Both the position numbers and the translations under genes were made by a program. A stretch of 64,000 nucleotides of DNA from Nitrospirota bacterium (GTDB taxonomy: Bacteria > Nitrospirota > Thermodesulfovibrionia > Thermodesulfovibrionales > Dissulfurispiraceae), in assembly GCA_963710375.1 (NCBI GenBank), contig CAVPZX010000005.1, forward strand, positions 160,001 to 224,000, read 5' to 3'. Shown here piece by piece: positions 22,420 through 59,204 of this stretch (within the stretch, counting starts at the first letter, position 1; each line of letters starts with the position of its first letter). The notes beneath the pieces are model-generated. The model did no database searches, was not told the origin of the DNA, and worked only from the letters and a program-made list of their open reading frames with translations.

Positions 22420-23580
<1,161 letters not shown>

Positions 23581-26325: not shown

Positions 26326-28050
26326 TCACAGTGAAACCTTTATTAGCAATTGCTGAGCCCTTTGGTCGTCCGGCTTTATCTTTAATCCTGCAATTAATTC
26401 CCTGCGCGCCTTTTCCATTTGTCCTGTTTTATAATAGGCCAGTCCAAGATTAAAATGTATCTCCGCGATATCCGGTCTCAGGTTTACAGCAATCAGAAAC
26501 TGCTCCAAAGCCTTGTCAGGTATATTGCTATCTTCATAGGCGCCGCCAAGATTATTATGCACTGCTACATCACCGGGAGATTTCTTAGCAGTGTCTTCCC
26601 ATAGTCTGATTTTGTCTCCCCACAACTCGTTGCGCCGATATGTGGCAATTGCCAAAACTCCTGCTACTAGGACAAGCATCACCAGTATGCCCTTTCCTGC
26701 CTTGAGTGAATGCACCCTTGTCTTTATCAGAAATGCCCCTGTAACCACAGCAATACTTATCCCCACTGAAGGCAAATACACTCTATACTCATCTATAAGC
26801 CTGGTAAGCGGGATAAGGCTTGATTCGACGGAAAGGGTGATAAAAAACCACAGAATCCCGAAGCTGATAAGGCGAAACTCAGTACTGAGGGCAGAGGATT
26901 CAGCACTGAGAGACAAGGACTGAATGCCGTGGACCGCCGGCTGAGTATTCAGTCCTTTCCACTTAATCCATGTTTTTTTCTCAGTCCTCAGCACTAAATA
27001 TATACCCAGTCCAAAGAGCGTGAAGAGCAACAGAAAGGACAGCAACACTTGAGGGTCGAAGGCAGACTTAAACACCGGATAGTCGTAATCAATGTTCTGA
27101 TTCACCGGCATAAACAGTAGTCTCAAGTATGTGACAATAACCCTGAACTCGGTCAGCACATACTCTGGCCGAGAGAACACGACGGAGACATAGCCCGGAA
27201 GAGGGTCTATCCCTGCGCCGGCAGTTCCTTTCAGGTATATAAGTGTCTGCGGAATTATGCTCATGGTGAGAAGCATGAGGGCAAGGGGAATCATTCTACT
27301 TTTCAGAGCGGCTCTAAAGAAAAGGAACTCGTACAAAGTAATTACCAATGGCAGCGTAAAGGCATTCTCCTTCGTCTTCATCGCCAGCACCGCTGAAATG
27401 AAGGATATGCTGTAATAAAAGAGTCTCTGTTGCTTGCCCACAGATAGCCGAGATGATATATAGGCGGTCAGGGAGAGTAGATAGAAAAACGCTGCAAGAG
27501 AGGCAACCCGCTGAAATACATAGGTCACTGCCATTGTTTGAAGAGGATGAACTGCAAACAGCATTGATGAGAAAAAAGCAATATACAGGGAGTTCTGTTT
27601 CATTGACGATTTGGCAAAAAATGGCGTTCTGAATGTCAATAAAACAAGCAAATAAACCAGAATAGAGTTTGCAACATGGATAGCTATATTGACAATATGG
27701 TAGCCAGTCACAGAGAAGCCGTGCATCTTGTAATTAAGTGCAAAGGTGAGAAAGCCGATATATCGGAGCACGAGGAAATTGTAATATTCAAACCCTCGTG
27801 CATCCGACGGGTTTACGAAATAATGAAGGTCCCTTACAATTGGATTTCTGACAAGAAACAAATCCTCATCCCATTGAAACGGAGCATTGAGGGTATTGGA
27901 ATAGATGATGAGAATTATAAAGACTATGCAGGCAATATGCACAAGGGTGTTATTTGGCGATGACCGTGGGCTGAAAGACTCTTGCGATATAGGCATGGGG
28001 CGTTTTTCTGTATTGCTTGTCTTGTTTGTTTTTTTATTTTTCTTTTTCAT
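26326..28050 (-). CDS. TMTC-like membrane glycosyltransferase (GT-C + TPR), paralog 1
   Basis: WDE, YH..N..IH..N, FAVHP..T.AV.Y..QR, KE, E.R.YLP, C-terminal TPRs. Confidence 0.75.
   Translation of the reverse strand: MKKKNKKTNKTSNTEKRPMPISQESFSPRSSPNNTLVHIACIVFIILIIYSNTLNAPFQWDEDLFLVRNPIVRDLHYFVNPSDARGFEYYNFLVLRYIGFLTFALNYKMHGFSVTGYHIVNIAIHVANSILVYLLVLLTFRTPFFAKSSMKQNSLYIAFFSSMLFAVHPLQTMAVTYVFQRVASLAAFFYLLSLTAYISSRLSVGKQQRLFYYSISFISAVLAMKTKENAFTLPLVITLYEFLFFRAALKSRMIPLALMLLTMSIIPQTLIYLKGTAGAGIDPLPGYVSVVFSRPEYVLTEFRVIVTYLRLLFMPVNQNIDYDYPVFKSAFDPQVLLSFLLLFTLFGLGIYLVLRTEKKTWIKWKGLNTQPAVHGIQSLSLSAESSALSTEFRLISFGILWFFITLSVESSLIPLTRLIDEYRVYLPSVGISIAVVTGAFLIKTRVHSLKAGKGILVMLVLVAGVLAIATYRRNELWGDKIRLWEDTAKKSPGDVAVHNNLGGAYEDSNIPDKALEQFLIAVNLRPDIAEIHFNLGLAYYKTGQMEKARRELIAGLKIKPDDQRAQQLLIKVSL
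26878..26996. repeat. Degenerate heptamer (GGACTGA) hairpin in frame in paralog 1
   Basis: gtactga gggcaga ggattca gcactga gagacaa ggactga ... tcagtcc tcagcac. Confidence 0.7.
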
Positions 28051-35227: not shown

Positions 35228-35228
35228 T

Positions 35229-38547: not shown

Positions 38548-38551
38548 AGAC

Positions 38552-38654
38552 AGAAGTTGAGAAGTTGCGAAGGTGAGAAGATGAGAGAAAGGATACTGCG
38601 TGAAAATGTGGGTTTGGGGTCTCAACTTCACAACTTCACAATTTCTCAACTTCT
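38552..38654. repeat. Octamer hairpin element between the gspL-like and gspM-like genes
   Basis: gaagttga gaagttgc gaaggtga gaagatga ... tcaacttc acaacttc acaatttc tcaacttc. Confidence 0.92.
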
Positions 38655-38674
38655 ATGTTTACAGCGGCGCTGAA

Positions 38675-39214: not shown

Positions 39215-40164
39215 AAAAGATTCAGACAGAAAAAATCGAGCTTTTCGCAAGGAAATATATTTTTGACATAGGCATTGCAGCCATATTCTTTTTTTTCGCG
39301 CTTGTCCTTGCAGAAAGGCCGAAGGTGGACCTTCGCCTGAGAAATGCTTTGCCGGCATTGTCCGGGAAAGTCAGCGTTAAGCAGATACCGGTGACTGCTG
39401 CTCCTGCCGGCGCCCAGCAAAGTCTCGGTCTTTCCAGGGACCAGGTTCCGGCAAAAGACGGTAATATAAATCCGGACATTTCAGATTTTTATGCGGATGA
39501 ATTCAGGATCCAGGGAAAAGATGTTCGTAAGCTCTGTGAAGCAATCAGGAGTGACGGTTATAAAATCGGGGCAATAAATGCTTCCGCGGGCACTATTGAA
39601 CGGCTCAATGCAGGAAATCTTATTGAACGGCTCAATGCCGGAAATCTTATCGAGTGGCTGAATAGCTTGCTCAGGGTCGGCGATTTGTTCGATAAAATTA
39701 CCTATATGAAACCGGACCTTGTCCTGACAGATGAGATAAAAGAACTCAGGGACCAAACTGAAGAGAAACGCGGGAAGCCATTTAACGGCCTCAAAGATGA
39801 CGAGAAGAAGGCAATAAAAAGGCTGAACAGATTGATGTTAGAGCTGGCTTATCCAAAGGAAACCCCGAAGAACAGGAATCTTGTGGTAAGGAATATATTC
39901 GATCCGGAAGGCAACTACGAACAGCCCAAAGAGTTGATAATCATTCCTGAAAAACCATATAATCTCATTGCTGTCCTGGAAGGAAAGGAAAAGAGGGCGA
40001 TATTAAGGGATTATACCGGCAATATGGTTTCTCTCAAGACAGGTGATAAGATGATCGACGGAGCTGTTGTTATCAAAATCGACAAGCTGAGCGTTACAGC
40101 AAAAAAAGGCGTGAAGAAAATGGAATACAGGATTTTCGATGTTAAACCGAAAAAGAAAAAATAA
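39211..40164 (+). CDS. GspC/PilP-like protein with an inserted helical domain
   Basis: One TM, RNIF, L.AV...K.AI..L..GD..DG..V..I; lies before the secretin. Confidence 0.55.
   Translation: MKKIQTEKIELFARKYIFDIGIAAIFFFFALVLAERPKVDLRLRNALPALSGKVSVKQIPVTAAPAGAQQSLGLSRDQVPAKDGNINPDISDFYADEFRIQGKDVRKLCEAIRSDGYKIGAINASAGTIERLNAGNLIERLNAGNLIEWLNSLLRVGDLFDKITYMKPDLVLTDEIKELRDQTEEKRGKPFNGLKDDEKKAIKRLNRLMLELAYPKETPKNRNLVVRNIFDPEGNYEQPKELIIIPEKPYNLIAVLEGKEKRAILRDYTGNMVSLKTGDKMIDGAVVIKIDKLSVTAKKGVKKMEYRIFDVKPKKKK
39595..39648. repeat. 27-bp tandem duplication (IERLNAGNL x2)
   Basis: attgaacggctcaatgcaggaaatctt / attgaacggctcaatgccggaaatctt. Confidence 0.9.
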
Positions 40165-40213
40165 AAGGTTAATTTTTGATGACAAAGAGATGAAGGGAGA
40201 ACAAGGGAGAATT

Positions 40214-42391
40214 ATGAGCAGGATATTTCAATGTATCGTGACGGTAATAATTTCTTTAGTGGTCTTTGGATGCGCTTCAACCAAAGAGGTGAAGCCTTCT
40301 GCGTCCGGGCAGGACAATCAACCGGCTGCGGCGTCTGTGACGCAAGGAGACAAAGTCCAGGAAACAAAAAATATTGAATCACTTCAGCCTGCTGAGGAAC
40401 CGAGCCAGAAGAGGCCGGACGAAGACATATTAATGCCGCAAATTAAGAAATCTCTTTATCAGAAATCGCTTCCCGCCAAAGCTGAGCGTATGCCGATAGA
40501 TCCGAAGCGTATTGTGCATGTTTCGGGGAACGTTATTCTTAATGCTGAATCCATGCCCCTTTCGGACTTTATCGTATATGCCCTTGGCGATACCCTGAGG
40601 ATAACTTTTTTCGTGGACGAGCCGGTAATGGCCATGAAAAATCCTATTACCCTCAGAATGACACAGGAAATGCCTGCGGAAAAGGTCGTTGAAGTCGTCA
40701 TAGGCTTTCTCGAGAAAAATGGTTTGGTCGTGGAGGAAAAGGGCGGGGCCCTGTATATCATGAAGCCGAAACCGCCGGCTGTCCAGTCCCCTCCGGTGGA
40801 TTTCAGGATAGGCAGGAATACCGAGGACAGCCCTGCAAACGTATTTCAGTTCGTGCCTTTCAGGCATTTGCATGGAGCGCAAGTAATGCAACTGCTTGGG
40901 GATTTGTTTAAGGATGTCAGGATACAATGGTATAACAAAGAAAACGCCCTTATGCTCAGCGGACCGGCTTCATCCATGAAAGAGATGATCGATTTTATTG
41001 ATTTTATCGATGTCCCCACGTTGAGTGATAAAAAACTCTTTTTGTTCCAGCTTACGTACTGGCAGCCTGATGATTTCATAAGACAGATTAGTGCGATATT
41101 GGAGGGAGTCGGCTATTCTATTGCAAAAGGTCCTGCCGATCCCGGTATTGAATTTATCCCAATCAAGTATCTCAATAGCATACTTATCGTGTCTCCTGAT
41201 GACGCCACGCTGAAATTCGCCCTTGACTGGAAAAGAAGACTCGATACCGCTGAGTCGGCCGGAACAGAGGAAAAGGTATTCACTTTTACCCCGCAGTATT
41301 CCAAGGCGTCGGATCTTGTGGACTCCATAAAAAAGCTGTATGGTGTGATGCCGGCGATCGCGCCGGCAAGAGGACCTCAGGGAGTGCAGGCTGCTCCTGT
41401 TGGCGCTGCTGCCCCGACTGCCACGGCTGCTGCCGCAGTCCCACTTCCGACTACTGCTTCCGTGTCTCCTGCGTCTCCTGTGTCTTCTGTGTCTTCTGCC
41501 TCAATCCCGGGGCTGAAGATTTCAGGCGACGACAGGAGAAATATTGTCGTCATCATTTCAACCCCCTCCATATTCAAGTCTGTTCTCGCTATCCTACAGG
41601 AGCTGGATAAGCCGCCTAAACAGGTGCTCATAGAGGCCATGATAGCCGAGCTGACCCTTACAGACGATCTGTCCTACGGGCTCGAATGGTACCTGCAGAC
41701 CAGGAATAAGACATCGGGCACATCGAACTCGCTTACCACCCTCGGTCAGCTAGGGCTAAACACATCCTCCGGCCTTGTATATAACTTTTTGTCTGACTCG
41801 CAGAGATTACAGGCCGTTGTGAATGCTTTTGCGCAGCAGAACAAGGTGAATATTCTTTCGACTCCTAGGATAATGGTCCTCGATAATCAGACCGCAACAT
41901 TGAATGTAGGATCTCAAGTGCCCATTTTAGGGGGCCAGACAACAACTTCCACTGTTGAAGGGTCTACTGTAAATGCCCAGGTTGTTTCATACGTCACTAC
42001 AGGAATTACCGTGAGTGTAACACCGACAATCAACACCGAAGGACTGCTTACCCTTCAAATATCTGTTACGGACAGTCAGGCGGTGCCGAATTCAACTTCT
42101 TCAATAAACAGCCCTTTGATAACCAACGACTCGCTGTCCACCAGCATTGTTGCCACGACATCGGAAACTATATTATTGGGAGGGATGATGTCGGACAGTG
42201 TGACCGACAGTGAGTCGAAAGTTCCCCTTCTCGGTGATATACCGTTGCTAGGGAACCTTTTCAAGACAAGGTCAAAGGACAAAACAAAGACTGAATTAAT
42301 AATAATGTTGACGCCCAAGATTCTGACAAGCGGCGACGAGGCAGCAAGAATCACCAATGAAATTAGAAAGAGTATTAAATGGTTGCAGTGA
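40214..42391 (+). CDS. gspD: Lipoprotein secretin
   Basis: Lipobox VFGC; LD.P.KQVLIEA, LSTP, KVPLLGDIPLLG.LF, ELII..TP. Confidence 0.93.
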   Translation: MSRIFQCIVTVIISLVVFGCASTKEVKPSASGQDNQPAAASVTQGDKVQETKNIESLQPAEEPSQKRPDEDILMPQIKKSLYQKSLPAKAERMPIDPKRIVHVSGNVILNAESMPLSDFIVYALGDTLRITFFVDEPVMAMKNPITLRMTQEMPAEKVVEVVIGFLEKNGLVVEEKGGALYIMKPKPPAVQSPPVDFRIGRNTEDSPANVFQFVPFRHLHGAQVMQLLGDLFKDVRIQWYNKENALMLSGPASSMKEMIDFIDFIDVPTLSDKKLFLFQLTYWQPDDFIRQISAILEGVGYSIAKGPADPGIEFIPIKYLNSILIVSPDDATLKFALDWKRRLDTAESAGTEEKVFTFTPQYSKASDLVDSIKKLYGVMPAIAPARGPQGVQAAPVGAAAPTATAAAAVPLPTTASVSPASPVSSVSSASIPGLKISGDDRRNIVVIISTPSIFKSVLAILQELDKPPKQVLIEAMIAELTLTDDLSYGLEWYLQTRNKTSGTSNSLTTLGQLGLNTSSGLVYNFLSDSQRLQAVVNAFAQQNKVNILSTPRIMVLDNQTATLNVGSQVPILGGQTTTSTVEGSTVNAQVVSYVTTGITVSVTPTINTEGLLTLQISVTDSQAVPNSTSSINSPLITNDSLSTSIVATTSETILLGGMMSDSVTDSESKVPLLGDIPLLGNLFKTRSKDKTKTELIIMLTPKILTSGDEAARITNEIRKSIKWLQ

Positions 42392-47918: not shown

Positions 47919-48014
47919 GAAGTTGAGAAATTGAGAAGATGTGAAGATGAGAAAAAGAAATGTAAGCCTGATTTGTTGTCGCGCACCTTCTCACCTTCTC
48001 AGCTTCCCATCTTC
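47919..48014. repeat. Octamer hairpin element directly upstream of the four-helix-bundle gene
   Basis: gaagttga gaaattga gaagatgt gaagatga ... gcaccttc tcaccttc tcagcttc ccatcttc. Confidence 0.92.
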
Positions 48015-48028
48015 GGATCGCCGAAGGT

Positions 48029-48433
48029 GTGATGGTGGGCAATAGTCAGAAAATAAAAAGTGTTAGGGATTTGGATGTTTATAAGATGGCTTTCAATGCG
48101 GCAATGGACATTTGGCAGATAACAAACGGTTTTCCCAAAGAAGAAAAATATTCTCTTGTAGATCAAATAAGGCGTTCTTCAAGATCTGTATGTTCAAATC
48201 TTGCAGAAGCGTGGCGAAAGAGGCGATATAAAGCCGTGTTCAAGAATAAGTTGACTGATGCTATGCAAGAGGCTTCTGAAACGCAGACATGGCTGGAGTT
48301 CAGTGTTGCTTGTAAATATGTTGATCAAAATAAATTTGATGACTTTGATCAAAAATATGAACATATATTAGCTATGTTGAATAATATGGACTTGAAAGCT
48401 GAATCCTTCTGCTTCTCAACTTCTGATAAATAA
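48029..48433 (+). CDS. Four helix bundle protein (23S rRNA IVP / TIGR02436-like)
   Basis: DL.VY, FP.EE.YSL.DQIRRSSRSV..N.AE.W, E..ET.TWL. Confidence 0.93.
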   Translation: MMVGNSQKIKSVRDLDVYKMAFNAAMDIWQITNGFPKEEKYSLVDQIRRSSRSVCSNLAEAWRKRRYKAVFKNKLTDAMQEASETQTWLEFSVACKYVDQNKFDDFDQKYEHILAMLNNMDLKAESFCFSTSDK

Positions 48434-49638
48434 TGTTTAGGGACGTATATAGAGGTAAGCAAGTATTAATCACTGGTCACACGGGATTCAAAGGCTCTTG
48501 GCTTGCCCTGTGGCTCAGAGAGTTAGGAGCGAATATAATCGGTTATTCCCTTGATCCACCTACAAACCCCAATCATTTTGATTTGCTAGCCTCTTCTCAG
48601 GTTCTCACCTTCTCATCTTCTCAACTTCCCAACTTCATCTCTATTTTCGGAGATATACGGGATGTAAAGAAGCTGAATCAGACCTTTCAGAACTATAAGC
48701 CTGATATAGTCTTCCACCTCGCTGCACAACCTCTCGTCAGGTATTCATATAAACATCCGCTCGATACATTTGAGACAAATGTGATAGGGACAATAAATGT
48801 TCTTGAAGCTTGCAGACAGACTGAATCAGTCAGGGCAGTAGTAAATATAACGAGCGACAAGTGCTATGAAAACAAAGAATGGGTATGGGGCTATCGTGAG
48901 AGTGACCCGTTTGGCGGTTACGACCCCTACAGCGCATCAAAAAGTTGCGCAGAGCTTGTGACTAACTGTTACAGGCGCTCTTTCTTTATAACTGAAACTG
49001 AGAAGTTGAGAAGGTGTGAAGGTGAGAGTAAAGCCGAAGGACTCACAACTTCTCAACTTCTCAACTTCACAACTTCAGTCCTTTTAGCCAGCGCAAGAGC
49101 GGGCAATGTCATAGGCGGCGGAGATTGGGCAGCGGACAGATTGATTCCCGACATTATGAGGGCGGTCAGCCGGAATAAGAAGGTTGTTATCAGAAATCCC
49201 AAGTCAACCCGTCCCTGGCAGCATGTGCTGGAGCCGTTGTCAGGTTATCTGGCGCTTGGGCAGAAGCTCTTGGAAGGGAAATCGGAATTTGCCGATGGGT
49301 GGAATTTTGGGCCTGATGATGAAAGCAACATATGTGTTGAAGAAGTTGCAGAAAAGATGACCAGCTTCTGGCATAAAATTGGTTACCAACGCAAACCATT
49401 TAAACATCCAAGCCTCCGGCCATCCGACCCTCATGAGGCTGGTCTGTTAAAACTTGACTGCTCGAAAGCCCATTCAAGGCTTGAGTGGAAACCTGTCTGG
49501 GATATTAAGAAAACGCTTGTAATGACCGCTCAATGGTATAAAGAGTTTTACGAACGTGATGGAATAATGAGTCAGAAGGATTTGGATGAGTATATTCTGA
49601 ATGCGAAGGAAAAAGGTTTGCGTTGGGCAGTTGATTGA
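48433..49638 (+). CDS. rfbG: CDP-glucose 4,6-dehydratase with in-frame repeat inserts
   Basis: TGHTGFKGSWL, HLAAQPLV, YSASK, RAGNVIGGGDW, RPWQHVLEP. Confidence 0.96.
   Translation: MFRDVYRGKQVLITGHTGFKGSWLALWLRELGANIIGYSLDPPTNPNHFDLLASSQVLTFSSSQLPNFISIFGDIRDVKKLNQTFQNYKPDIVFHLAAQPLVRYSYKHPLDTFETNVIGTINVLEACRQTESVRAVVNITSDKCYENKEWVWGYRESDPFGGYDPYSASKSCAELVTNCYRRSFFITETEKLRRCEGESKAEGLTTSQLLNFTTSVLLASARAGNVIGGGDWAADRLIPDIMRAVSRNKKVVIRNPKSTRPWQHVLEPLSGYLALGQKLLEGKSEFADGWNFGPDDESNICVEEVAEKMTSFWHKIGYQRKPFKHPSLRPSDPHEAGLLKLDCSKAHSRLEWKPVWDIKKTLVMTAQWYKEFYERDGIMSQKDLDEYILNAKEKGLRWAVD
48591..48636. repeat. Single octamer arm in frame in rfbG (SSQVLTFSSSQLPNF)
   Basis: tcaggttc tcaccttc tcatcttc tcaacttc ccaacttc. 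Confidence 0.9.
48991..49079. repeat. Octamer hairpin in frame in rfbG (TETEKLRRCEGE..TTSQLLNFTTS)
   Basis: actgaaactgagaagttgagaaggtgtgaaggtgagagt / actcacaacttctcaacttctcaacttcacaacttcagt. Confidence 0.95.
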
Positions 49639-49662
49639 GCAGGTTTGTCGGAAGACTCCTAC

Positions 49663-51108
49663 ATGGAAAGAAGAGAACAACTAAAACAGGAAATATTTGA
49701 GAGAATAAGGGCATTTTATCAGCTTGTGCATGAGACATCCCACAATGCAGAGTTTGTTGCAGGCAAAAGTCGCATAAACTATGCAGGCCGGGTATTTGAT
49801 GAAGAAGAGATGATTAATCTTGTCGATAGTTCCCTTGATTTCTGGCTTACAACAGGCAAATATGCCGAAAGGTTTGAAAAAGAATTTGCAGATTTCCTTG
49901 GAGTGAAATATTGCTCTCTTGTCAATTCAGGGTCTTCAGCTAATCTCCTCGCGTTTATGGCGTTAACATCTCCGAAGCTCGGTGATAGAAGCATTCAGAG
50001 GGGCAATGAGGTCATAACAGTAGCAGCAGGTTTCCCAACCACAGTCGCTCCCATCATTCAGTATGGCGCTGTGCCGGTATTTGTTGATGTTACGCTGCCG
50101 GCATACAACATAGATTGTTCGCAGCTCGAAAATGCACTATCAGATAAAACAAAGGCTGTAATGGTCGCGCATACCCTCGGCAATCCCTTCGATATCCGGA
50201 CGGTAAAAACGTTCTGCGATAAACATAATCTCTGGCTCATCGAGGATAACTGCGACGCTCTTGGCAGTAAATACCGAAGGTGGGAAGTTGAGAAGGTGAG
50301 AAGTTGTGAACGTGAGAAGGCAGGCCCAACTTCACAACTTCACAACTTCCCACCTTCGGAGCTTTACGGCTACACCGGGACTTTCGGGCATATTGGAACG
50401 TCGAGTTTTTATCCGCCCCATCATATGACTATGGGAGAAGGCGGCGCTGTTTATACGAACGATATTCAGCTCAAAGGGATAATAGATTCTTTCCGTGACT
50501 GGGGCAGGGACTGCTGGTGTGTGTCGGGTAAAGACGATACATGCAAAAAACGCTTTAAATGGCAGCTCGGAGAACTTCCTTACGGATATGATCACAAATA
50601 TATCTATTCCCATTTCGGGTATAACTTAAAGGTTACCGACATGCAGGCGGCTATAGGCTGTGCGCAACTCGAAAAGCTGCCCTTTTTTATTGAAGCAAGA
50701 AAGAAAAACTGGAGTCTTCTGAGGGACGGGCTGCATGACCTTTCAGATAAGTTTATCCTGCCTGAGCCTACTGCGAATTCAGAGCCATCCTGGTTTGGGT
50801 TCCTGTTGACTGTGAAGGAGAGCGCGGGTTTTACGAGGGATGAGATAGTGAATTATCTTGAATCAAATAACATCCAGACACGTATGCTCTTTGCAGGAAA
50901 TATACTGAAGCATCCCTGCTTCGATGAAATGAGAAAAACCGGCCACGGTTTCCGTGTCATTAGGGACTTACCGGTAACTGACCGCATAATGCGCGACAGT
51001 TTTTGGGTTGGGGTCTATCCGGGGATGAAAGAAGAGGCGATCGAATATGTCATGCAAAAGATAAAAGAGTATGCAAGACATGAACAATCGATTCCCGGTT
51101 TAGGGTAA
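49663..51108 (+). CDS. rfbH: CDP-4-keto-6-deoxyglucose 3-dehydrase (RfbH/DdhC) with an in-frame repeat insert
   Basis: NSGSSANL, EDNCDALG, SFYPPHH.T.GEGG (His in place of the PLP Lys), RDCWC..G.D.TC. Confidence 0.95.
   Translation: MERREQLKQEIFERIRAFYQLVHETSHNAEFVAGKSRINYAGRVFDEEEMINLVDSSLDFWLTTGKYAERFEKEFADFLGVKYCSLVNSGSSANLLAFMALTSPKLGDRSIQRGNEVITVAAGFPTTVAPIIQYGAVPVFVDVTLPAYNIDCSQLENALSDKTKAVMVAHTLGNPFDIRTVKTFCDKHNLWLIEDNCDALGSKYRRWEVEKVRSCEREKAGPTSQLHNFPPSELYGYTGTFGHIGTSSFYPPHHMTMGEGGAVYTNDIQLKGIIDSFRDWGRDCWCVSGKDDTCKKRFKWQLGELPYGYDHKYIYSHFGYNLKVTDMQAAIGCAQLEKLPFFIEARKKNWSLLRDGLHDLSDKFILPEPTANSEPSWFGFLLTVKESAGFTRDEIVNYLESNNIQTRMLFAGNILKHPCFDEMRKTGHGFRVIRDLPVTDRIMRDSFWVGVYPGMKEEAIEYVMQKIKEYARHEQSIPGLG
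50274..50359. repeat. Octamer hairpin in frame in rfbH
   Basis: ccgaaggtgggaagttg... / ...caacttcccaccttcgg; outer 17 bp perfectly complementary. Confidence 0.95.
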
Positions 51109-53199
51109 TATTTCATTCAGCAATTGCCGGGTTTTTTGGTCATCCGGCTTTATCTTTAACCTTGTCATCAATTGAATGCGCGCATTTTCTATAATATCCG
51201 GTCTCAGGCGCAGGGCAGTTTCGAATTCATTTTTGGCCTTGTCAAGTCTGTCGCTGTCGTAATAAACAAGGCCAAGATTAAAATGTGCTTCTGCGTAATC
51301 GGGCGCAAGTTTAATGGCAATCAGATACTGCTCAATAGATTTGTCAGGCATGTTGATGGCATGATAGGCAATGCCGAGATTATTATGTGCCTCAGCATAA
51401 TCAGGCTTGAGTTTAATGGCAATGATATATTGCTCAATAGCATTGTCAAGCATGTTGCGACTTTTATAAAAATTACCAAGTCTGGCATGTGCATTTGCGT
51501 AACGGGGGAATCTTTTAACTGTATCTTCCCACATTTTTTTGCTGTCTCCATATAGATTGTTCTGCAAATGAGCTGCGACTGACAGAATGCTTATAATAAG
51601 GGCGAGCGTCACTAGTATCACATTGCCGGCTTTCTGTGAACGAATTTTTTCTTTCAGCAGAAATACCCCCGTAACTGTGCAAATGATTACCCCGACCGAG
51701 GGCAGATACATTCGATACGTTTCAATAAGCCTCGGCGTAGGTATAATGCTCGATTCAACTGAAAGGGTGATAAAGAACCACAATATACCGAAACCCATCA
51801 AACGAAAAGCAGGACTAAGGGCAGAGGACTGAGAGGCGAGGACTGAGGACTGAGGACTGAGAGACGAGGACTGAGAGGCGAGGACTGAGGACTGAGGACT
51901 GAGAGACGAGGACTGAGAGGCGAGGACTGAGTTTTCGTCTTCGCGCTTTGCCCTCAGTCCTTTGCCCTTAGTCCTCAGTCCTGGACCCTCTTCCTTTGGC
52001 CCTTTCCACTCAGTCCTCAGTCCTTCGCCCTCAGTCCTCAGTCCTCGCCTCTCTTTTTTCTGCACTAAATAAATCCCCAGTCCAAATAGCGCTGAGAGAA
52101 ACACAAATGAAACGGATACCTGCGGTTGAAAAAAAGACTTAAACACAGGGTACTCATAATTGAGTTCCAGGTTTGCCGGGAAAAACAGCATTCGCAGGTA
52201 AGTGACAATGACCCTGAACTGGGTGAAAAAATACTCTCCCCGCGAGTAGTCCCAGGTGAATCCGGCCATATATGAGCCCGGGTCAATAAGGCTGGGATTA
52301 ATCAGTTGTGTGCCGCGTACTTCGGTCACTGTCGGCATGCTCATAATAGTCAGAGGTATGATGCAAAGTGAAAGCAATAATGGAGCAAGAACGAGCATCC
52401 TCTTCTTAATGCCGCCATTAAAAAAACAAAACTCGTACAACGTTATCACAAAGGGCAGAGTAAACGCATTCTCCTTTGTTTTCATTGCCAGGACCGCTGA
52501 AAGAAGGGATATGGCGTACATAGTCCGGCGCCGGGCTTTATGATGGTCAGGAGCCTCCAATCTGAACTTAATATATGCTGTGAGGGAAAGGAGATAGAAA
52601 AAAGCGGCGAGAGAGGCATAACGTTGCATGACATACGTAACCGCCGCTGTCTGCAGCGGGTGGACGGCAAACAGAGCGGCGGAGAAGAAGGCAATCACTG
52701 CCGGATTGCCTGAACTTGAGAAATTGAGAACTTGTGAAGGTGTGCCCTTTGCCCTATGCCCTATGCCTTTCATGTAAGGTGTTCTGAATGTCAATAGAAC
52801 AAGCAAATAAACCAGGATTGTATTGGCGATATGAATGGCAATATTGACAATATGGTAGCCGGTCACCGATAAACCGTTTATACGGTAGTTGAGCGCAAAG
52901 GTGAGATGCGAGATGTAGCGGGATATGAAAAAACGGTAATTCTCAAACCCTTGAGCTGTTGAGGGGTGAAGGAAATAATTAAGGTCCTTGATAATAGGCT
53001 CGTTAACAATATGCATCTCTTCATCCCACTGAAATGGGACATTCAAGGCATTGGAGTAAATGATCAGAATAAGCAGAGACAGACAAGCGATATGCACAAA
53101 GGAGTTATATGTCAATGACAGCGGACTGAACGATGCATGTGCAGGGGGAAGGTCATTGTGACGGATCAGCTTATTTGTTTTCTTACCCTTGTTTTTCAT
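51100..53199 (-). CDS. TMTC-like GT-C + TPR protein, paralog 2
   Basis: Same motifs as 26326-28050; TPRs. Confidence 0.75.
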   Translation of the reverse strand: MKNKGKKTNKLIRHNDLPPAHASFSPLSLTYNSFVHIACLSLLILIIYSNALNVPFQWDEEMHIVNEPIIKDLNYFLHPSTAQGFENYRFFISRYISHLTFALNYRINGLSVTGYHIVNIAIHIANTILVYLLVLLTFRTPYMKGIGHRAKGTPSQVLNFSSSGNPAVIAFFSAALFAVHPLQTAAVTYVMQRYASLAAFFYLLSLTAYIKFRLEAPDHHKARRRTMYAISLLSAVLAMKTKENAFTLPFVITLYEFCFFNGGIKKRMLVLAPLLLSLCIIPLTIMSMPTVTEVRGTQLINPSLIDPGSYMAGFTWDYSRGEYFFTQFRVIVTYLRMLFFPANLELNYEYPVFKSFFQPQVSVSFVFLSALFGLGIYLVQKKERRGLRTEGEGLRTEWKGPKEEGPGLRTKGKGLRAKREDENSVLASQSSSLSPQSSVLASQSSSLSPQSSVLASQSSALSPAFRLMGFGILWFFITLSVESSIIPTPRLIETYRMYLPSVGVIICTVTGVFLLKEKIRSQKAGNVILVTLALIISILSVAAHLQNNLYGDSKKMWEDTVKRFPRYANAHARLGNFYKSRNMLDNAIEQYIIAIKLKPDYAEAHNNLGIAYHAINMPDKSIEQYLIAIKLAPDYAEAHFNLGLVYYDSDRLDKAKNEFETALRLRPDIIENARIQLMTRLKIKPDDQKTRQLLNEILP
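51811..52053. repeat. Heptamer (GGACTGA) hairpin in frame in paralog 2
   Basis: (ggactga)n ... (tcagtcc)n; encodes GLRTE.. and SPQSSVL.. Confidence 0.95.
52712..52767. repeat. Composite octamer + heptamer insert in frame in paralog 2
   Basis: gaacttga gaaattga gaacttgt gaaggtgt followed by gcccttt gccctat gccctat gcc. Confidence 0.85.
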
Positions 53200-54285
53200 A
53201 AAAGATCCCTGACCGTTTCAGCGTGAGATTGCATTCAATAACTGACGGGCTATCTGGTCATCAGGCTTTATCTTTAATCTCGCTATCAACTCTCTGCGCG
53301 CATTTTCCAGTTGTCCCATATTATAGTAGAGGACTCCGAGATTAAAATGAGCTGTTTCATTATCCGGTTGGAGGCGTATGACAGTTTGTAATTCATTCAC
53401 GGCCTTGTCAGGCATGTTGAGGGACTGATAAAGAATAGCGAGATTATTGTGCGCTTCCACATAGTTGGGCTTCTCCTGTATTGCGGCCAGATAGTGTTCA
53501 GTTGCCTTGCCAGACATGCCCTGATCTTTATAGACATTGGCTAGATTATAATGCGCCTCAGGGTAATCAGGCTTCAGATTAATGGCAGTCTGAAACTCTT
53601 TTATAGCCTTGTCAGGCATGTTGAGGGCCTGATAAACAGCTCCCAGATTATTATACGCTTCTATAAAATCGGGTTTTAGATTAATGGCAGTCAGAAACTC
53701 TTTTATAGCCTTGTCAGGCATTTTGAGGGCCTGATCATAGAGGACGCCAAGATTGTAATGCGCCTTCCAGTGCCCAGGGGCAAGACTTATTGCAGTCAGA
53801 TATTCCTTTAAAGCAGCATCGGGCATACCGAGGTCTTGATAGCTGTTGCCGAGACCGAGATGCGCTTCAGTGGAATCAGGATTAATTTTCAAGGCAAGCT
53901 GAAACTGTTCCGCAGCCTTGTCCGACATGCGATGGTGTCGGTAGGCCAACCCAAGATTATAATGCACTCTTTCTTTTGCAGGGAATTTTAACGCGTCTTC
54001 TTTCCATAACTTGACTTCGTCTCTCCACATATCATTGCGCATATATGTAGCAACTGACAGTACGCCTGCAGCAAGTGCAAGAATGGTTACTATCACCCTA
54101 CCGGCTTTTGGGGAACGCAGATTTTCTTTCAGCAGAAATGCACCGGTAACAACGCAAACAAATATCCCCATTGAAGGCAGATACACGCGGTGTTCAAAAA
54201 TCACATCGGCGATGGGTATGATGCTCGACTCCACTGAGAGAGTGATGAAAAACCACAATATCCCGAAACCCATCAACTTAAAGGC

Positions 54286-54556
54286 AGGACTGAGGGCAGA
54301 GGACTGAGAGGCGAGGACTGAGGACTGAGGACTGAGTGCCAAGGACTGAGAGACGAGGGCAGAGGACTGAGGACTGAGAGACAAGGACTGAGAGGCGAGG
54401 ACTGAGGACTGAGTGTCAAGGACTGAGGACTGAGCAGAGAGGACTGAGTTTTGGTCTTCGATCTTTGCACTCAATCCTCTGCCCTCAGTCCTCAGTCCTG
54501 GATCCTCTTTCCTTTGGCCCTTTCCACTCAGTCCTCAGTCCTCTGTCCTCAGTCCT
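54286..54556. repeat. Heptamer (GGACTGA) hairpin in paralog 3
   Basis: (ggactga)n ... (tcagtcc)n. Confidence 0.95.
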
Positions 54557-55036
54557 TGTTTTTTTCTCGCTCCACAGCACTAAATAAATGCCCAGCCCGA
54601 AAAGCGCGGCAAGAAACATAAACGAAAAGATCACCTGGGGGTAAAAGAAAGATCTATAAATAGGATAGTCATAGTCGACATTCTGTCCTGCGGGGAAAAA
54701 CAGCAGCCGCATATATCTCACAATTACTGAGAACTCCGTCATCAGGTATTGCCATGGCGTCGTCCTTGTCTGCACTGTTATCTTGCTCGCATCCGACAAT
54801 ACTTTCCCCAACGGCTGGCTCACATTCAGCAAGCTCAAAGGAATGATGACCACTGTTGCCAGCAGCGGCAAGGCCCATAGAGCCCTCCTGAGCAGATTGC
54901 CTCTGCCGAAGAACACCAGTTCGTACAACACAACAATAAACGGCAGTGTAAAGGCTATCTCCTTTGTCATCATCGCAAGCACAGCCGAAACAATAGAAAT
55001 CCCATAATAAAAATATGGCATGTATTTTCGTTTTTC

Positions 55037-55310
55037 CCGGCTACCGGCCACCGGCCCCTGGCCACTGTCTTTTGCTTCTTGCCCTCCGCCCTCAGTCCTC
55101 AGTCCTTGGTCCTCTGCCCTCAGTCCTCGCCTCTCAGTCCTCAGTCCTTGGTCCTCTGCCCTCAGTCCTCTGCTCTCAGTCCTCAGTCCTTGGTCCTCCG
55201 CCCTCAGTCCTCGCCTCTCAGTCCTCAGTCCTTGGTCCTCTGCCCTCAGTCCTCGCCTCTCAGTCCTCAGTCCTCTGCCCTCAGTCCTTGTTTTATTACC
55301 CTCAGTCCTT
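55037..55310. repeat. Heptamer array with a 42-bp higher-order unit, in frame in paralog 3
   Basis: ctcagtcctcagtccttggtcctctgccctcagtcctcgcct repeated about 4 times (GLRTERRGLRAEDQ), next to ccggcta ccggcca ccggccc ctggcca. Confidence 0.95.
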
Positions 55311-55454
55311 GACTTTATATATGTCACTAATGAAAGGAGATAAAAAAATGAAGCGAGGGACGCAAGCCTCTGCACTATATAAGTGACCGCCTGAGTTTGG
55401 ATAGGATGCACCGCAAACAAGACAGCAGAGAAGAAGGCGATCAGCCCGGAATCG

Positions 55455-55520
55455 CTGAGTACTAAAGACTGAGGACTTAGGACTGAGGGCATAGGACTGA
55501 GGACTGAGGACTGAGGACTC
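55455..55520. repeat. Heptamer arm in frame in paralog 3
   Basis: Encodes SPQSSVLSPMPSVLSPQSLVLS. Confidence 0.9.
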
Positions 55521-55841
55521 ATGGCCGGTGTTCTGAATGTAAATAGCACAAATAAATAAACCAGCATGGAGTTAGCAATATGAATTGCAAGATTGACTAT
55601 ATGGTAGCCGGTCACATTTGAACCACCCAAGCTGTAGTTCAGGGAAAATGTCAGATACCCGATGAATCGTCTAGAAAAATGTTCATACCCTGTGGAACTG
55701 AACAGAAAATTTCCGATATGACGCACTATACTGTTATCAATTATGTTGAATTCATCGTCAAATACAAACGGCGCATGAAAAGTATTAGAATAACAAATCA
55801 GGCATAATAGAGCTATAATGCCGGCATGTAAGAGCTGGGAA

Positions 55842-58091
55842 TTATGATTTTGATTTGGAAATTTCATTCAGCAACTGTCGGACATTTTGGTCGTTAGGTT
55901 TTATCCTTAATATCGTTGTCAATTCCCTGCGTGCCTTTTCTTTCTGTCCCCTCTCATAATAGAGTTCTCCAAGATTGGAATGCGCCTCTATATAATCGGG
56001 CTTCAGTTTAATGGCAATCAGATAATATTCTATGGCCTTGTCGGGCATTTTCTGGTCTTCATAGATTACGCCAAGATTATTATACGCCTCTGCGCAGTCA
56101 GGCTTTAGTTTAACAGCAATCAGATACTCTTTTAAAGCCCTTCCACGCATGCTGCGGGACTGATAAAACACGCCACCCAGATCAAGATGGGCCTCCACAT
56201 AATCAGGCCTCAGTTCTACGGCAGTCATAAACTCTTTTATAGCTTTCTCGGGCATTTTACGATCTTTATATATATTGCCAAGGTTATAATGTGCCTCAGG
56301 TAAGTCCGGATTAAGCTTGGAAGCAATCATAAACTGCTCAATCGCCTTGTCAGGCATATTACGGTCTCGGTAGATAACCCCGAGGTTATTGTATTCCTCT
56401 GCAGAATCAGGTTTCAGCCCAATGGCAATCCGGTACTGCTCTATGGCTTCATCGAACTTTTTTTGAGACTGATAGAGGCGACCAAGATTATAATGCGCCC
56501 TTTCCTTGGCAGGTGATTTTGCCACGACGTCTTTCCACAGTCTTATACTGTCTCCCCACACTTCGTTCCGCAGATACGTAGCGACCGACAAAACTCCTAT
56601 AGCAAGGGCCAGCATCAAGATTATTACCCTGCCGTACCTGGGCGAACGCACCTTTTCTATTAACAAAAAGGCCCCTGTAACTGTACAAATAATCATTCCT
56701 ATTGAAGGCAGATAAGCACGGTGCTCGTAAATTACATCAGTGATAGGTATTATGCTTGACTCGACCGAAAGAGTGATAAAAAACCACAATATACCAAAAC
56801 CCATCAAACGAAAAGCAGGACTGAGAGGCGAGGACTGAGAGGCGAGGACTGAGGACTGAGCAGTTAGGACTGAGTTTTGGTCTTCGCGCTTTGCACTCAG
56901 TCCTTTGACCTCAGTCCTCAGTCCTGGACCCTCTTCCTTTGGCCCTTTCCACTCAGTCCTCAGTCCTCTGTCCTCAGTCCTTGCTTTATTACCCTCAGTC
57001 CTCAGTCCTTGGTCCTTCGTCTTCAGCACTAAATAAATGCCCAGCCCGAAAAGCGTCACCAGAAACAGAAGCGACAGCATCACCTGGGGATAGAAGAAAG
57101 ATCTATACACCGGATAGTCATAATCGAGGTTCTGCCCTGCAGGGAAAAACAGCAGCCGCACATACGTCACGATCACAGTGAACTCTGTTATCAGATACTG
57201 CCACCGCGTCATGCTTGTTCCCGCCGCAGTCACCTGATTCACATCCGACAACACCTTCCCCAACTGTTGGCCCACATTCAGCATGCTCAGTGGAATGATG
57301 ACCACTGTTGCCAGCAGCGGTAAGGCCCATAGCGTCCTCTTAATCAGATTGCCTCTGCCGAAAAACACCAACTCGTAAATCACAATGATAAACGGCAGCG
57401 TAAAGGCTATCTCCTTTGTCTTCATCGCCAGCACCGCAGAGATAATAGAGATGCTGTAGAAGAAGAGATACCGGAAGTTGCCCTTTGCCCCGCCTGAGGC
57501 GGGCCCTCTGCCCTCTGCTATTAGCCTGAACCGAACATAAAAGTACAACGAGGCAACATAAAACAAAGCTGCCAAAGACGCAAGCCGCTGCACTATGTAT
57601 GTCACTGCCTCGGTTTGGATAGGATGCACCACAAATAACGCGGCAGAAAAAAAGGCAATCAGATTAGAATTTCTGAGGACCGAGGACTGAGGACTGAGAG
57701 GCAAGGACTGAGGACTGAGAGACGAGGACTGAGGGTTCATTAACGGAGTCCTGAATGTAAGCACCACCAATCCATAAACCAGAAGCGCACAGGCCAGATG
57801 TATGGCAAGATTTACTACATGGTAGCCGGTCACATCAAGGCCGCCCAAGCGGTAGTTCAGGGCGAATGTCAGAAACCCTATAAAACGGCGGGGATTATTT
57901 TCATATCCTTTGGAGCTGAAGATAAAATTGCCGATATCATGGACTACCCTGTTATCCCTTATAGAGTATTCGTCGTCAAATATAAACGGCACATGGAAAC
58001 TGTTGGAATAGACGATTATTCCTGCCAAAATTATCAGGAAGGGATAAAAAAAATGATGGGCCGTTGCTGAATTCTTTGCCTTCCGAAACAT
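55842..58091 (-). CDS. TMTC-like GT-C + TPR protein, paralog 4
   Basis: FDD, YH..N..IH, HP.QTEAV.Y..QR, EHR.YLP, multiple TPRs. Confidence 0.78.
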   Translation of the reverse strand: MFRKAKNSATAHHFFYPFLIILAGIIVYSNSFHVPFIFDDEYSIRDNRVVHDIGNFIFSSKGYENNPRRFIGFLTFALNYRLGGLDVTGYHVVNLAIHLACALLVYGLVVLTFRTPLMNPQSSSLSPQSLPLSPQSSVLRNSNLIAFFSAALFVVHPIQTEAVTYIVQRLASLAALFYVASLYFYVRFRLIAEGRGPASGGAKGNFRYLFFYSISIISAVLAMKTKEIAFTLPFIIVIYELVFFGRGNLIKRTLWALPLLATVVIIPLSMLNVGQQLGKVLSDVNQVTAAGTSMTRWQYLITEFTVIVTYVRLLFFPAGQNLDYDYPVYRSFFYPQVMLSLLFLVTLFGLGIYLVLKTKDQGLRTEGNKARTEDRGLRTEWKGPKEEGPGLRTEVKGLSAKREDQNSVLTAQSSVLASQSSPLSPAFRLMGFGILWFFITLSVESSIIPITDVIYEHRAYLPSIGMIICTVTGAFLLIEKVRSPRYGRVIILMLALAIGVLSVATYLRNEVWGDSIRLWKDVVAKSPAKERAHYNLGRLYQSQKKFDEAIEQYRIAIGLKPDSAEEYNNLGVIYRDRNMPDKAIEQFMIASKLNPDLPEAHYNLGNIYKDRKMPEKAIKEFMTAVELRPDYVEAHLDLGGVFYQSRSMRGRALKEYLIAVKLKPDCAEAYNNLGVIYEDQKMPDKAIEYYLIAIKLKPDYIEAHSNLGELYYERGQKEKARRELTTILRIKPNDQNVRQLLNEISKSKS
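56817..57030. repeat. Heptamer (GGACTGA) hairpin in frame in paralog 4
   Basis: Same site and loop as 51811-52053. Confidence 0.93.
57673..57734. repeat. Heptamer arm in frame in paralog 4
   Basis: Encodes PQSSSLSPQSLPLSPQSSVL. Confidence 0.9.
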
Positions 58092-58103: not shown

Positions 58104-58493
58104 CTATCTTCCTGTTTTGGAGGGCGTTGTCCTGTCCTCTGTCCCTATCTTTTTTTCCAGGGTCTTAAGTTTTGTTTGCAGCAAACCCAACTCCTGGGCA
58201 AGACGGTTGTTTTTTACGTCCAGCAGGGATATTATTGTCGAGAAATGCAGGAGCAGCACCAGCAGAAATACAATTGCAAGGAGGAACAGGAACGACGGCG
58301 GGTAATAGATGCCTATCATATTTGATATCAGACTAAGCAGGTTCCTCGATACAGAAAAGCTTATTAAAACTATCGAAGCGGCAAGCCATATGAGGCTGTA
58401 GCGCTCCTTAAGGTGGCTGCGCCTTATGAGTTCTATGACTGCGAAAAATATTGAGACACTGACAGTAATAGCAACAACCTGGACGATATCCAT
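58104..58493 (-). CDS. DUF2304 family membrane protein
   Basis: LKERYSLIW, GIYYPP, LAQE; follows a GT2. Confidence 0.85.
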   Translation of the reverse strand: MDIVQVVAITVSVSIFFAVIELIRRSHLKERYSLIWLAASIVLISFSVSRNLLSLISNMIGIYYPPSFLFLLAIVFLLVLLLHFSTIISLLDVKNNRLAQELGLLQTKLKTLEKKIGTEDRTTPSKTGR

Positions 58494-58508
58494 AACACCT
58501 TTCTTATA

Positions 58509-59204
58509 TTAATCGATTTTCTTCATCAAATCAATAAATACTGCCAGAAGCACCTTGACCATATAATAAACTGCTCTTGAGATTGTTATCGACGATCTGC
58601 CGCTGGTGCGGGGACCTATTTCTGACGGCACTTCTACAATCTTCAACCTCTTTTTATGGGCAAGGATAAGGGCCTCCACCTCAGGATAGTCTTCAGAATA
58701 GATCGAACAGAAAAATTCGAGCGTTTTTTTTCCGTAAACCCGGAAGCCGGATGTGGTGTCTGTTATCCTTTGTCCTGTGATAGAGGAAACTACAAAGGAT
58801 AGTATCTTGGCGCCTATCCTCCTTTGCACCGACGATGTGAACCCGCCGTCTGAGAGAAATCTTGAGCCTACAACGAGGTCAGCGCCTTGAGAGACCCATG
58901 GCGCCAGTATCTTTTCGATCTGGTCTGCGTGGTGCTGCCCGTCTCCATCGAATTGTATGGCCGCGTCATATCCCTCCTGCAGAGCAAAGAGGAACCCTGC
59001 CTGCATGGCTCCGCCGATCCCAAGATTATATGGCAGATTTACGACCCTTGCACCCATATCCTCAGCTATGACCGGCGTCTTGTCCCGCGAGCCGTCGTTA
59101 ATGACAACTATATCTCCAACAGGGAAGTTGTCCCTTAGGTCCTGGATTACCCTGTTAATGCATCCTTCTTCATTATACGCCGGTATGATTACAAGTATAC
59201 GCAC
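58509..59204 (-). CDS. GT2 glycosyltransferase (DPM1-like)
   Basis: IPAYNE, NDGS.D, NLGIGGA, DGDGQH, D.TSGFR, DYPE. Confidence 0.92.
   Translation of the reverse strand: MRILVIIPAYNEEGCINRVIQDLRDNFPVGDIVVINDGSRDKTPVIAEDMGARVVNLPYNLGIGGAMQAGFLFALQEGYDAAIQFDGDGQHHADQIEKILAPWVSQGADLVVGSRFLSDGGFTSSVQRRIGAKILSFVVSSITGQRITDTTSGFRVYGKKTLEFFCSIYSEDYPEVEALILAHKKRLKIVEVPSEIGPRTSGRSSITISRAVYYMVKVLLAVFIDLMKKID

What the first reader, a model, noticed from the sequence alone, without database searches (positions are those of the whole stretch)
51100..58091. TMTC-like paralogs carry repeats at the same three loop positions, but from different families
Seen: inserts follow LTFRTP, YIK(S/F)R/YVRFR and GLGIYLV. 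Site 1 holds GGACTGA arms in paralogs 3 and 4, a GGGCATA + octamer composite in paralog 2, and nothing in paralog 1 (26326-28050). Site 2 has a ~270-bp array only in paralog 3. Site 3 has a hairpin in all four, with a shared WKG core. Inference: independent repeated filling of permissive loops, creating long low-complexity segments in putative protein O-glycosyltransferases.
Basis: partly seen in the sequence, partly recalled or inferred. Interest (0 to 1): 0.7.

Follow-up and report, generated by a model that had tools for sequence, protein, structure and literature searches.

The report
Selfish repeats fill enzyme's inner loops
In one genus of uncultured bacteria, a family of likely membrane sugar-transferases has had all five of its predicted cytoplasm-facing loops filled again and again, in frame, by many unrelated short DNA repeats that likely also get copied between gene copies, while the outward-facing loops stay almost entirely free of them.

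Summary
1. Paralog 3's break is one extra base (54508) missing from other samples; intact 840-882 aa versions exist.
2. Paralog 4 also has a small site-2 insert.
3. Site 3 holds the same repeat family in all four paralogs.
4. Two more paralogs lie elsewhere in the genome.

The proteins have a GT-C fold (Pmt2, Z 20), 11 helices and TPR tails. They are TMTC-like, but DUF1736 and three TMTC motifs are absent. Across 50 genus homologs, 142 inserts of many kinds fill five loops, all predicted cytoplasmic. External loops and TPR tails are almost free of them. The family is about 50-fold enriched for inserts over other genes and is under purifying selection. The tree rejects one ancestral event. The near-identical site-3 element in distant paralogs points to copying between paralogs. 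The heptamer and octamer families match the arms of four-helix-bundle cassettes in this genome.

Best reading: tolerated selfish-repeat insertions, filtered by topology and spread by gene conversion, like Rickettsia palindromic elements. The scan found this pattern before on other DNA (e1-7579845, e1-9566507).

The parts
26326..28050 (-). Paralog 1, 574 aa, GT-C membrane domain plus TPR tail; sites 1 and 2 empty
26875..26991 (-). Paralog 1 site-3 loop: decayed family-A heptamer hairpin
   Evidence: its closest homolog P0006 keeps a fuller copy
51100..53199 (-). Paralog 2, 699 aa (a 685-aa version with one 42-nt unit fewer is on record)
51805..52062 (-). Paralog 2 site-3 loop (TM8-TM9): family-A hairpin with the shared spacer
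52696..52776 (-). Paralog 2 site-1 loop (TM2-TM3): heptamer-B plus octamer composite
53218..55867 (-). Paralog 3; 882 aa where the extra base is absent, split into two ORFs in this assembly
54508..54508 (+). Extra base in this assembly, absent from contigs of runs X1 and X4
   Evidence: table 4
54278..54577 (-). Paralog 3 site-3 loop: family-A hairpin with the shared spacer
55007..55311 (-). Paralog 3 site-2 loop (TM4-TM5): one-armed family-A array with a 42-nt higher-order unit whose copy number varies between records (882/854/840 aa)
55442..55525 (-). Paralog 3 site-1 loop: opposite arm of family A; predicted to pair with the site-2 array in the mRNA
55842..58091 (-). Paralog 4, 749 aa; membrane domain modelled with pLDDT 86, GT-C fold
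56811..57026 (-). Paralog 4 site-3 loop: family-A hairpin, modelled as coil with pLDDT about 50
57459..57524 (-).
57660..57743 (-). Paralog 4 site-1 loop: one arm of family A
48077..48388 (+). Four-helix-bundle gene (TIGR02436 match) with octamer arms at 47919-48014, the octamer family seen in paralog 2 site 1
58104..59204 (-). DUF2304 gene plus GT2 gene (best hit polyprenyl-phospho-sugar synthase PpgS, below cut-off) just upstream on the same strand: likely source of the lipid-linked sugar donor (inferred)

Best explanation
These are paralogous GT-C-fold, TPR-tailed membrane proteins, likely sugar transferases, whose five predicted cytoplasm-facing loops likely act as tolerant sinks for the genome's dispersed short-repeat hairpins, with inserts likely spread between paralogs by gene conversion. 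Steps: (1) Shown: the genome carries many hexamer, heptamer and octamer hairpin families, and each of its six four-helix-bundle genes is flanked by a different family. (2) Inferred: gene-less derivatives land in genes by an unknown route. (3) Pattern shown, cause inferred: only copies that keep the frame, avoid stops and sit in an inner loop persist. The inner loops lie opposite the predicted catalytic face and need no translocation. The inserts are Ser/Arg/Gly-rich and mostly net positive, which fits the positive-inside rule. (4) Inferred from the tree and DNA identity: recombination between paralogs copies an element from one backbone to another, and slippage changes copy number in frame-neutral 21- or 42-nt steps. 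Many paralogs per genome, redundancy and conversion would explain why this family collects far more inserts than other genes. The loops are most likely neutral or nearly neutral disordered extensions.
For: Fold: the top 20 VIA rows are GT-C-type proteins, best Pmt2 6p2r, Z 20.0, 369 aligned, rmsd 4.2. Model pLDDT 86, pTM 0.88, 11 long helices; the site-3 insert is coil.
Topology: in insert-free homologs K+R is 0.16-0.30 in the five inner loops vs 0.00-0.14 in the five outer ones, and the layout matches the TMTC model in PMC7801869.
Sidedness: among 50 genus homologs, tandem 6-8-nt repeats occur in 23, 11, 11, 31 and 9 copies of inner loops 1-5, vs 2 hits over all external segments and 1 of 50 TPR tails. 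Without G000: 78 regions in 62 kb of membrane domain, 0 in 28 kb of TPR tail, 0 in 12.6 kb of neighbouring ORFs. The same trend holds in 116 database homologs and in 142 representatives at 50% identity: 72 lengthened inner loops vs 2 outer. External stretch EL4a varies from 28 to 44 aa yet has 1 tandem hit in 50.
Diversity: 37 clusters among 142 inserts.
Non-ancestry: AU tests reject monophyly of the five family-A carriers (p 1.3e-5) and of paralogs 2+3+4 (p 0.011).
Copying.
Selection: backbone dN/dS 0.11-0.24 in 10 pairs; the first acidic residue of the EL1 motif is kept in 79 of 79; 118 of 142 inserts are net positive.
Enrichment: 10 inserts in 11.8 kb of this family vs 30 in 2.0 Mb of other genes, with 8 hits in the codon-shuffled control.
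Source families.
Against: - No expression, protein or activity data; no RNA run was listed.
- The way new elements arrive is not shown; I did not look for target-site duplications or a mobilising enzyme.
- Frame preservation is partly by construction, since homologs were chosen as long ORFs. Two further loci were split (L052, L066) and were left out of the 50.
- The enrichment counts converted copies as separate events, and neighbouring genes of the same island are themselves enriched (6 in 78.6 kb), so the local excess is about 11-fold.
- 291 other polytopic membrane proteins show only 4 hits, of which 1 looks like a true insert by eye. Inner-loop tolerance alone therefore does not explain the hot spot.
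- Only some k-mer clusters match the cassette arms of G000 (scores 0.11-0.40); the largest cluster scored 0.04, and palindromic REP-like inserts have another origin.
- Relatives are not independent samples, and several tree branches have under 70% support.
Confidence: 0.74

Rival explanations
1. The loops are adaptive. Variable low-complexity cytoplasmic segments, or the mRNA hairpins that encode them, tune the expression, stability, clustering or partner binding of each paralog, and in-frame copy-number change acts as a dial.
For: About 50-fold enrichment over other genes and about 11-fold over local ones. 42-nt copy-number variants between records. Paralog 3's site-1 and site-2 arms are complementary and are predicted to pair across two helices (z -6.7). 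Spread between paralogs could be selected.
Against: The sequence is not conserved: 4-15 unrelated kinds per site, and many close homologs have empty loops (27 of 116 with none). Paralog 1's copy is decaying. Copy-number variants may be assembly collapse, since contigs break at the arrays.
Confidence: 0.11
2. Insertion is targeted. The machinery that spreads four-helix-bundle or REP cassettes prefers DNA or RNA features at these five positions, or prefers pre-existing repeats, so the pattern is mutational rather than selective.
For: Many inserts are composites of two or more families (paralog 2 site 1), which suggests that an element attracts further ones. A four-helix-bundle gene lies directly upstream of one homolog (G003:C2:1673574). 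Other polytopic proteins are not enriched.
Against: I saw no common sequence at the five sites by eye (not tested formally). Strict agreement with protein topology across five alternating loops is hard to obtain from a DNA target. Unrelated element types use the same loops.
Confidence: 0.1
3. One ancestral insertion per site, followed by decay and divergence.
For: Paralogs 3 and 4 are sisters (support 100), so their site-1 and site-3 elements may be inherited. Close orthologs of paralogs 1, 4 and 5 carry the family-A site-3 element, so part of the pattern is vertical.
Against: Unrelated families occupy the same site in orthologs: the six-member clade of paralog 5 shows five different site-3 inserts and one empty site. 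The AU tests reject monophyly. The 34 comparison homologs show no tandem repeats in these loops.
Confidence: 0.03
4. The hairpins are excised at the RNA level, like intervening sequences, and never become protein.
For: Strong hairpins, and kinship of the arms to cassettes built like 23S rRNA intervening sequences (earlier scan notes).
Against: Many inserts are one-armed and cannot form a hairpin alone. Their position tracks protein topology. Stop triplets occur 190 and 224 times in the two non-coding frames, while family-A purine arms are interrupted wherever a stop would fall in frame.
Confidence: 0.02

Closest known systems
Rickettsia palindromic elements (RPE) and intragenic CGTC/GTAG REPs (passages of PMC10969869 and PMC3733652)
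   Same: Dispersed palindromic repeats inserted in frame into working genes and translated; proposed to be neutral when they sit in loops or linkers.
   Different: RPEs are about 150-bp families with a conserved peptide scattered over unrelated genes. Here many unrelated families converge on five loops of one gene family, with strict membrane sidedness and apparent exchange between paralogs.
Geobacter metallireducens multicopy heptamer/octamer sequences (passages of PMC2700814) and Beggiatoaceae heptamer repeats (passages of PMC4679880)
   Same: Heptamer and octamer arrays in inverted pairs, between and within genes; stop codons in one orientation limit their entry into ORFs.
   Different: In the passages I saw they were read as regulatory sites, with no recurrent loop hot spots and no link to four-helix-bundle genes.
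Borg tandem repeats creating disordered protein regions (abstract and section 2.4.3 of PMC9879509)
   Same: Fast-evolving repeats create disordered segments, with hot-spot genes that carry different repeats in homologs.
   Different: Borg repeats are perfect, locally arising direct repeats, often in extracellular or membrane proteins. These are dispersed, often inverted families confined to predicted cytoplasmic loops.
Animal TMTC1-4 O-mannosyltransferases (passages and part of section 9 of PMC7801869)
   Same: 11-helix GT-C domain plus C-terminal TPRs; acidic pair in EL1, a KE-x-x-x-T motif, and an E..R..Y motif in EL5. The paper notes prokaryotic homologs, and long cytoplasmic loops at TM2-3 (TMTC4), TM6-7 (all) and TM8-9 (TMTC2), the same loops as sites 1, 4 and 3 here.
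   Different: No DUF1736 hit; motifs M2 (except its Arg), M3 and M6 are absent; sugar donor and acceptor are unknown.
Heptamer-armed four-helix-bundle (TIGR02436, 23S-IVS-type) cassettes
   Same: The same arm families; six such genes in this genome, each with its own repeat.
   Different: The loop inserts carry no gene and are read through in frame.

Membership tests
GT-C superfamily | GT-C membrane fold | tested here: met
   VIA-align Z 20.0 Pmt2, 19.5 AglB, 19.1 Pmt4, 18.0 ArnT; Foldseek top rows are the same class but with E above 0.001
GT-C superfamily | Catalytic acidic residue in the first external loop | tested here: met
   D61 in 79 of 79 full-length homologs, mostly followed by D or E
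TMTC (animal TMTC1-4) | 11 TM helices followed by TPR repeats | tested here: met
TMTC (animal TMTC1-4) | Pfam DUF1736 match | tested here: not met
   No hit at E <= 0.01 for the five window ORFs (one list cut at 25) or at E <= 0.05 for 19 homologs (some lists cut at 25). PMT_2 was hit weakly by 5 of those 19 distant homologs.
TMTC (animal TMTC1-4) | Motifs M1, M4 and M7 | tested here: met
   An acidic pair, KE-x-x-x-T and E-x-R-x-Y (one residue offset; the E is missing in paralog 2)
TMTC (animal TMTC1-4) | Motifs M2, M3 and M6 | tested here: not met
   Only the Arg positions of M2 and M3 are kept; no P-x-x-P in TM9
TMTC (animal TMTC1-4) | Motif M5 (DW in EL4) | tested here: inconclusive
   An Asp-Tyr pair in EL4 may be equivalent, but no direct alignment to a human TMTC was made
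TMTC (animal TMTC1-4) | Protein O-mannosylation activity | not testable with these tools
   Two homologs carry a source's name 'protein O-mannosyl-transferase', which is annotation only
RPE-type coding palindromes | Dispersed repeat present both between genes and in frame inside functional genes | tested here: met
   332 elements: 163 intergenic, 115 at gene edges, 54 inside ORFs; dN/dS 0.11-0.24
RPE-type coding palindromes | Sequence homology to the Rickettsia RPE families | not tested
   No RPE sequence was fetched; the claim is 'works like', not membership
Heptamer-armed four-helix-bundle cassette | TIGR02436 gene between the arms | tested here: not met
   The loop inserts are 30-300 nt and hold no gene; the gene occurs at six other places
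Heptamer-armed four-helix-bundle cassette | Arm repeats of the same family | tested here: met
   Family A matches the arms at C5:269633, and the octamer matches those at window 48077; the match is weaker or absent for several other clusters

The most novel reading that the evidence does not exclude
This GT-C/TPR family is a dedicated collector and exchanger of selfish repeats. Gene-less derivatives of four-helix-bundle cassettes and REPs are steered into its five inner loops and shuffled among paralogs by conversion. This gives each paralog a variable cytoplasmic face or mRNA structure that tunes surface-protein glycosylation, a contingency mechanism built from selfish DNA.
Probability: 0.12. 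Interest if true: 0.8.

Novelty: new variant of a known kind. Interest (0 to 1): 0.45.

Why it matters
It is a natural insertion-scanning experiment. About 140 inserts map the tolerant, cytoplasmic side of a very large, uncharacterised bacterial GT-C/TPR family (22,091 representatives at E <= 1e-10) and support its topology. It links unexplained bacterial heptamer repeats and four-helix-bundle cassettes to the birth of disordered protein segments, and it shows inserts likely moving between paralogs. In practice, these arrays break short-read contigs and can create false frameshifts. It is not a new functional system on present evidence.

Tried and rejected
- Single-sequence folding of paralog 1 failed (pLDDT 42.6) and was not used.
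- Pfam, NCBIfam and PDB sequence searches found only TPR matches.
- Foldseek gave no row at E <= 0.001.
- No RNA holder was listed.
- No GxxExxY gene was found in G000.
- TIGR02436 was found in 3 of 3 genus genomes and 0 of 2 outside genomes searched, too few to count as a correlation.
- I could not test a genome-wide 'cytoplasm-only' rule: there was no signal-peptide predictor, and there were few inserts outside this family.
- A classification of inserts by named repeat families was not run, so family labels across the genus rest on k-mer clusters. These merge some composites and split some single families.
- Dropped before counts: 2 distant genus homologs, and split or partial ORFs including the two halves of paralog 3; 2 long outgroup rows before the AU tests.
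- Rejected: that the WKG core marks a unique site-3 event; that paralog 3 is a true pseudogene (likely not); that the arrays are assembly artefacts (other assemblies and genomes hold them).
- Paper searches found no description of this loop pattern. Most subscription journals are not in the library, and I read no supplements.
Full report
Setting. The window is G000:C5:160001-224000 of a 3.19-Mb, 98.8%-complete genome. The closest homologs are labelled Nitrospirae, Thermodesulfovibrionales or Dissulfurispiraceae, so the host is likely of that group (inference). The three tandem genes lie on the minus strand, downstream of two GT2 genes and a DUF2304 gene, facing CDP-sugar genes and a type II secretion/pilus operon. 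Paralog 1 is at 26326-28050. Two more paralogs lie on contigs C2 and C3.

Checking the observation. Paralog 4 has a small insert at site 2. Site 3 is family A in all four. The short WKG core is a normal sub-unit of family A, found also around a four-helix-bundle gene at C5:269633. Paralog 3 is split here by one extra base at 54508, which contigs of two runs from two studies lack, and read-through records of 840, 854 and 882 aa exist. These lengths, and 685 vs 699 aa for paralog 2, differ by multiples of 14 aa, the 42-nt higher-order unit. This may be strain variation or assembly collapse.

The protein. Sequence searches see only the TPR tail, and DUF1736 is not hit. An AlphaFold2 model of paralog 4's first 520 residues, built on 148 sequences, has pLDDT 86 and pTM 0.88, with 11 long helices and the site-3 insert as low-confidence coil. 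VIA-align ranks GT-C-type proteins in the top 20 rows, best yeast Pmt2 at Z 20.0, then AglB, Pmt4, ALG12 and ArnT. Against the TMTC motif table of PMC7801869 (passages and part 1 of section 9 read), M1, M4 and M7 are matched, M5 possibly, and M2, M3 and M6 only partly or not at all. The paper mentions uncharacterised prokaryotic homologs. I file the proteins as TMTC-like GT-C/TPR transferases, not as TMTCs; donor and acceptor are unknown. Backbones evolve at dN/dS 0.11-0.24, so the insert-bearing genes are likely functional.

Which side the loops face. With the N-terminus inside and the TPRs outside, sites 1, 2 and 3 are the TM2-3, TM4-5 and TM8-9 loops. In homologs without inserts, the five inner loops are Lys/Arg-rich (0.16-0.30) and the outer ones are not (0.00-0.14), which independently supports this topology.

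Comparative picture. A search of 41 genomes found homologs in 21, with many copies in the genus. I fetched 38 further regions and extracted 88 homologous ORFs. Among 50 full-length genus homologs, inner loops 1-5 were at least 8 aa longer than the outside median in 31, 25, 27, 41 and 13 cases, and held tandem 6-8-nt repeats in 23, 11, 11, 31 and 9. All external segments together gave 2 tandem hits, and the TPR tails gave 1. EL1b is uniformly about 9 aa longer in the genus, without repeats. EL4a varies from 28 to 44 aa, so an external stretch tolerates length change yet takes almost no repeats. TM8 gave 5 tandem hits without any length change. The 34 comparison homologs (other genera, plus two distant genus copies) had no tandem hit in these loops. 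Relatives alone gave 78 regions in 62 kb of membrane domain, 0 in 28 kb of TPR tail and 0 in 12.6 kb of neighbouring ORFs. The trend holds in 116 database homologs (214 lengthened inner loops vs 2 outer; this set overlaps the genus set) and in 142 representatives at 50% identity (72 vs 2), so it reaches beyond close relatives.

One event or many. The 142 inserts fall into 37 k-mer clusters, 4-15 per site, including palindromic REP-like elements. On a tree of 346 insert-free columns, G000's paralogs 1, 2, 3+4 and 5 fall in four separate clades whose other members have different or empty site 3. AU tests reject monophyly of all five (p 1.3e-5) and of 2+3+4 (p 0.011). Yet the site-3 elements of paralogs 2, 3 and 4 are nearly identical over about 85 nt, including a spacer found nowhere else in the genome, while the backbones share about 65% of their bases. 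Paralogs 2 and 4 also share 97% over the 10 codons at the insert's 3' edge. Close orthologs of paralogs 1, 4 and 5 carry a shorter version. The simplest reading is one family-A insertion in a sub-lineage, copied between paralogs, then expanded and copied again among the tandem three.

Where the repeats come from. TRF finds 332 such elements in G000: 163 intergenic, 115 at gene edges and 54 inside ORFs (some of the last are chance). All six four-helix-bundle (TIGR02436) genes are flanked by short-repeat arms, each of a different family. One is in the window at 48077-48388. Families A and B and the octamer of paralog 2, as well as those in the C3 paralog, are among them. I found this link; earlier scan notes describe the cassette itself. 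How gene-less copies move is unknown.

Is the family special? A scan with words learned from intergenic arrays found 10 deep inserts in 11.8 kb of this family against 30 in 2.0 Mb of other genes, with 8 hits in shuffled codons. That is about 50-fold overall and about 11-fold over the surrounding island. Ordinary enzymes nearby carry inserts too, so the habit is genome-wide. The excess is inflated by copied elements but is not explained by membrane topology alone, since 291 other polytopic proteins are not enriched. Redundancy plus conversion is my inference; targeting or adaptive use remain open.

Comparison with what is known. In-frame repeat insertion is known from Rickettsia RPEs and intragenic REPs (passages of PMC10969869 and PMC3733652). 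Heptamer and octamer arrays within genes are known from Geobacter and Beggiatoaceae (passages of PMC2700814 and PMC4679880). Repeat-made disorder is known from Borgs (abstract and one section of PMC9879509). Nine searches found no paper on convergent filling of inner loops in this family; I read no supplements. The scan noted similar cases in other genomes.

Verdict. Real, and broader than reported. It is a new variant of RPE-like coding repeats, notable for strict sidedness, a family-level hot spot and likely exchange between paralogs, and it is most likely neutral. Interest 0.45.

Noticed in passing
window 47919-48420: Four-helix-bundle (TIGR02436) gene with octamer arms between rfbF and the CDP-glucose dehydratase-like gene
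   Followed up: partly
window 48593-48636, 48999-49077, 50276-50357: Octamer inserts in frame inside the two CDP-sugar enzymes (48433-49638 and 49645-51108)
   Followed up: partly
window 22998-23033: Octamer insert in frame in the 381-aa ORF 22420-23565
   Followed up: no
window 55030-55530: Site-1 and site-2 arms of paralog 3 are complementary and are predicted to form a long-range mRNA stem enclosing two helices (z -6.7)
   Followed up: partly
window 31930-42391: Type II secretion/pilus operon (GspE, F, K, D-like) next to the transferase cluster; its pseudopilins are candidate acceptors
   Followed up: no
G000:C5:278325-278480 (L089): A short remnant of the start of the four-helix-bundle gene, with family-A arms, in front of a GT2 gene whose predicted N-terminus includes the repeat
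   Followed up: no
L066:694-1785: The open frame of a split homolog in G002 begins with what looks like a four-helix-bundle remnant plus a heptamer arm
   Followed up: no
L051-L053 (G005:C12:170500-253000): At least 11 paralogs in tandem clusters in one relative, nearly all with three to five filled loops
   Followed up: partly
window 55672, 56012, 56292: Three single-base differences shared by runs X1, X3 and X4 against the window, suggesting further assembly errors or a sister strain
   Followed up: no
G000:C3:147178-147350 and window 27910-28050: Paralogs 1 and 6 share 25 of 27 identical codons among the same-residue positions of block 50-95, a possible second conversion tract
   Followed up: no
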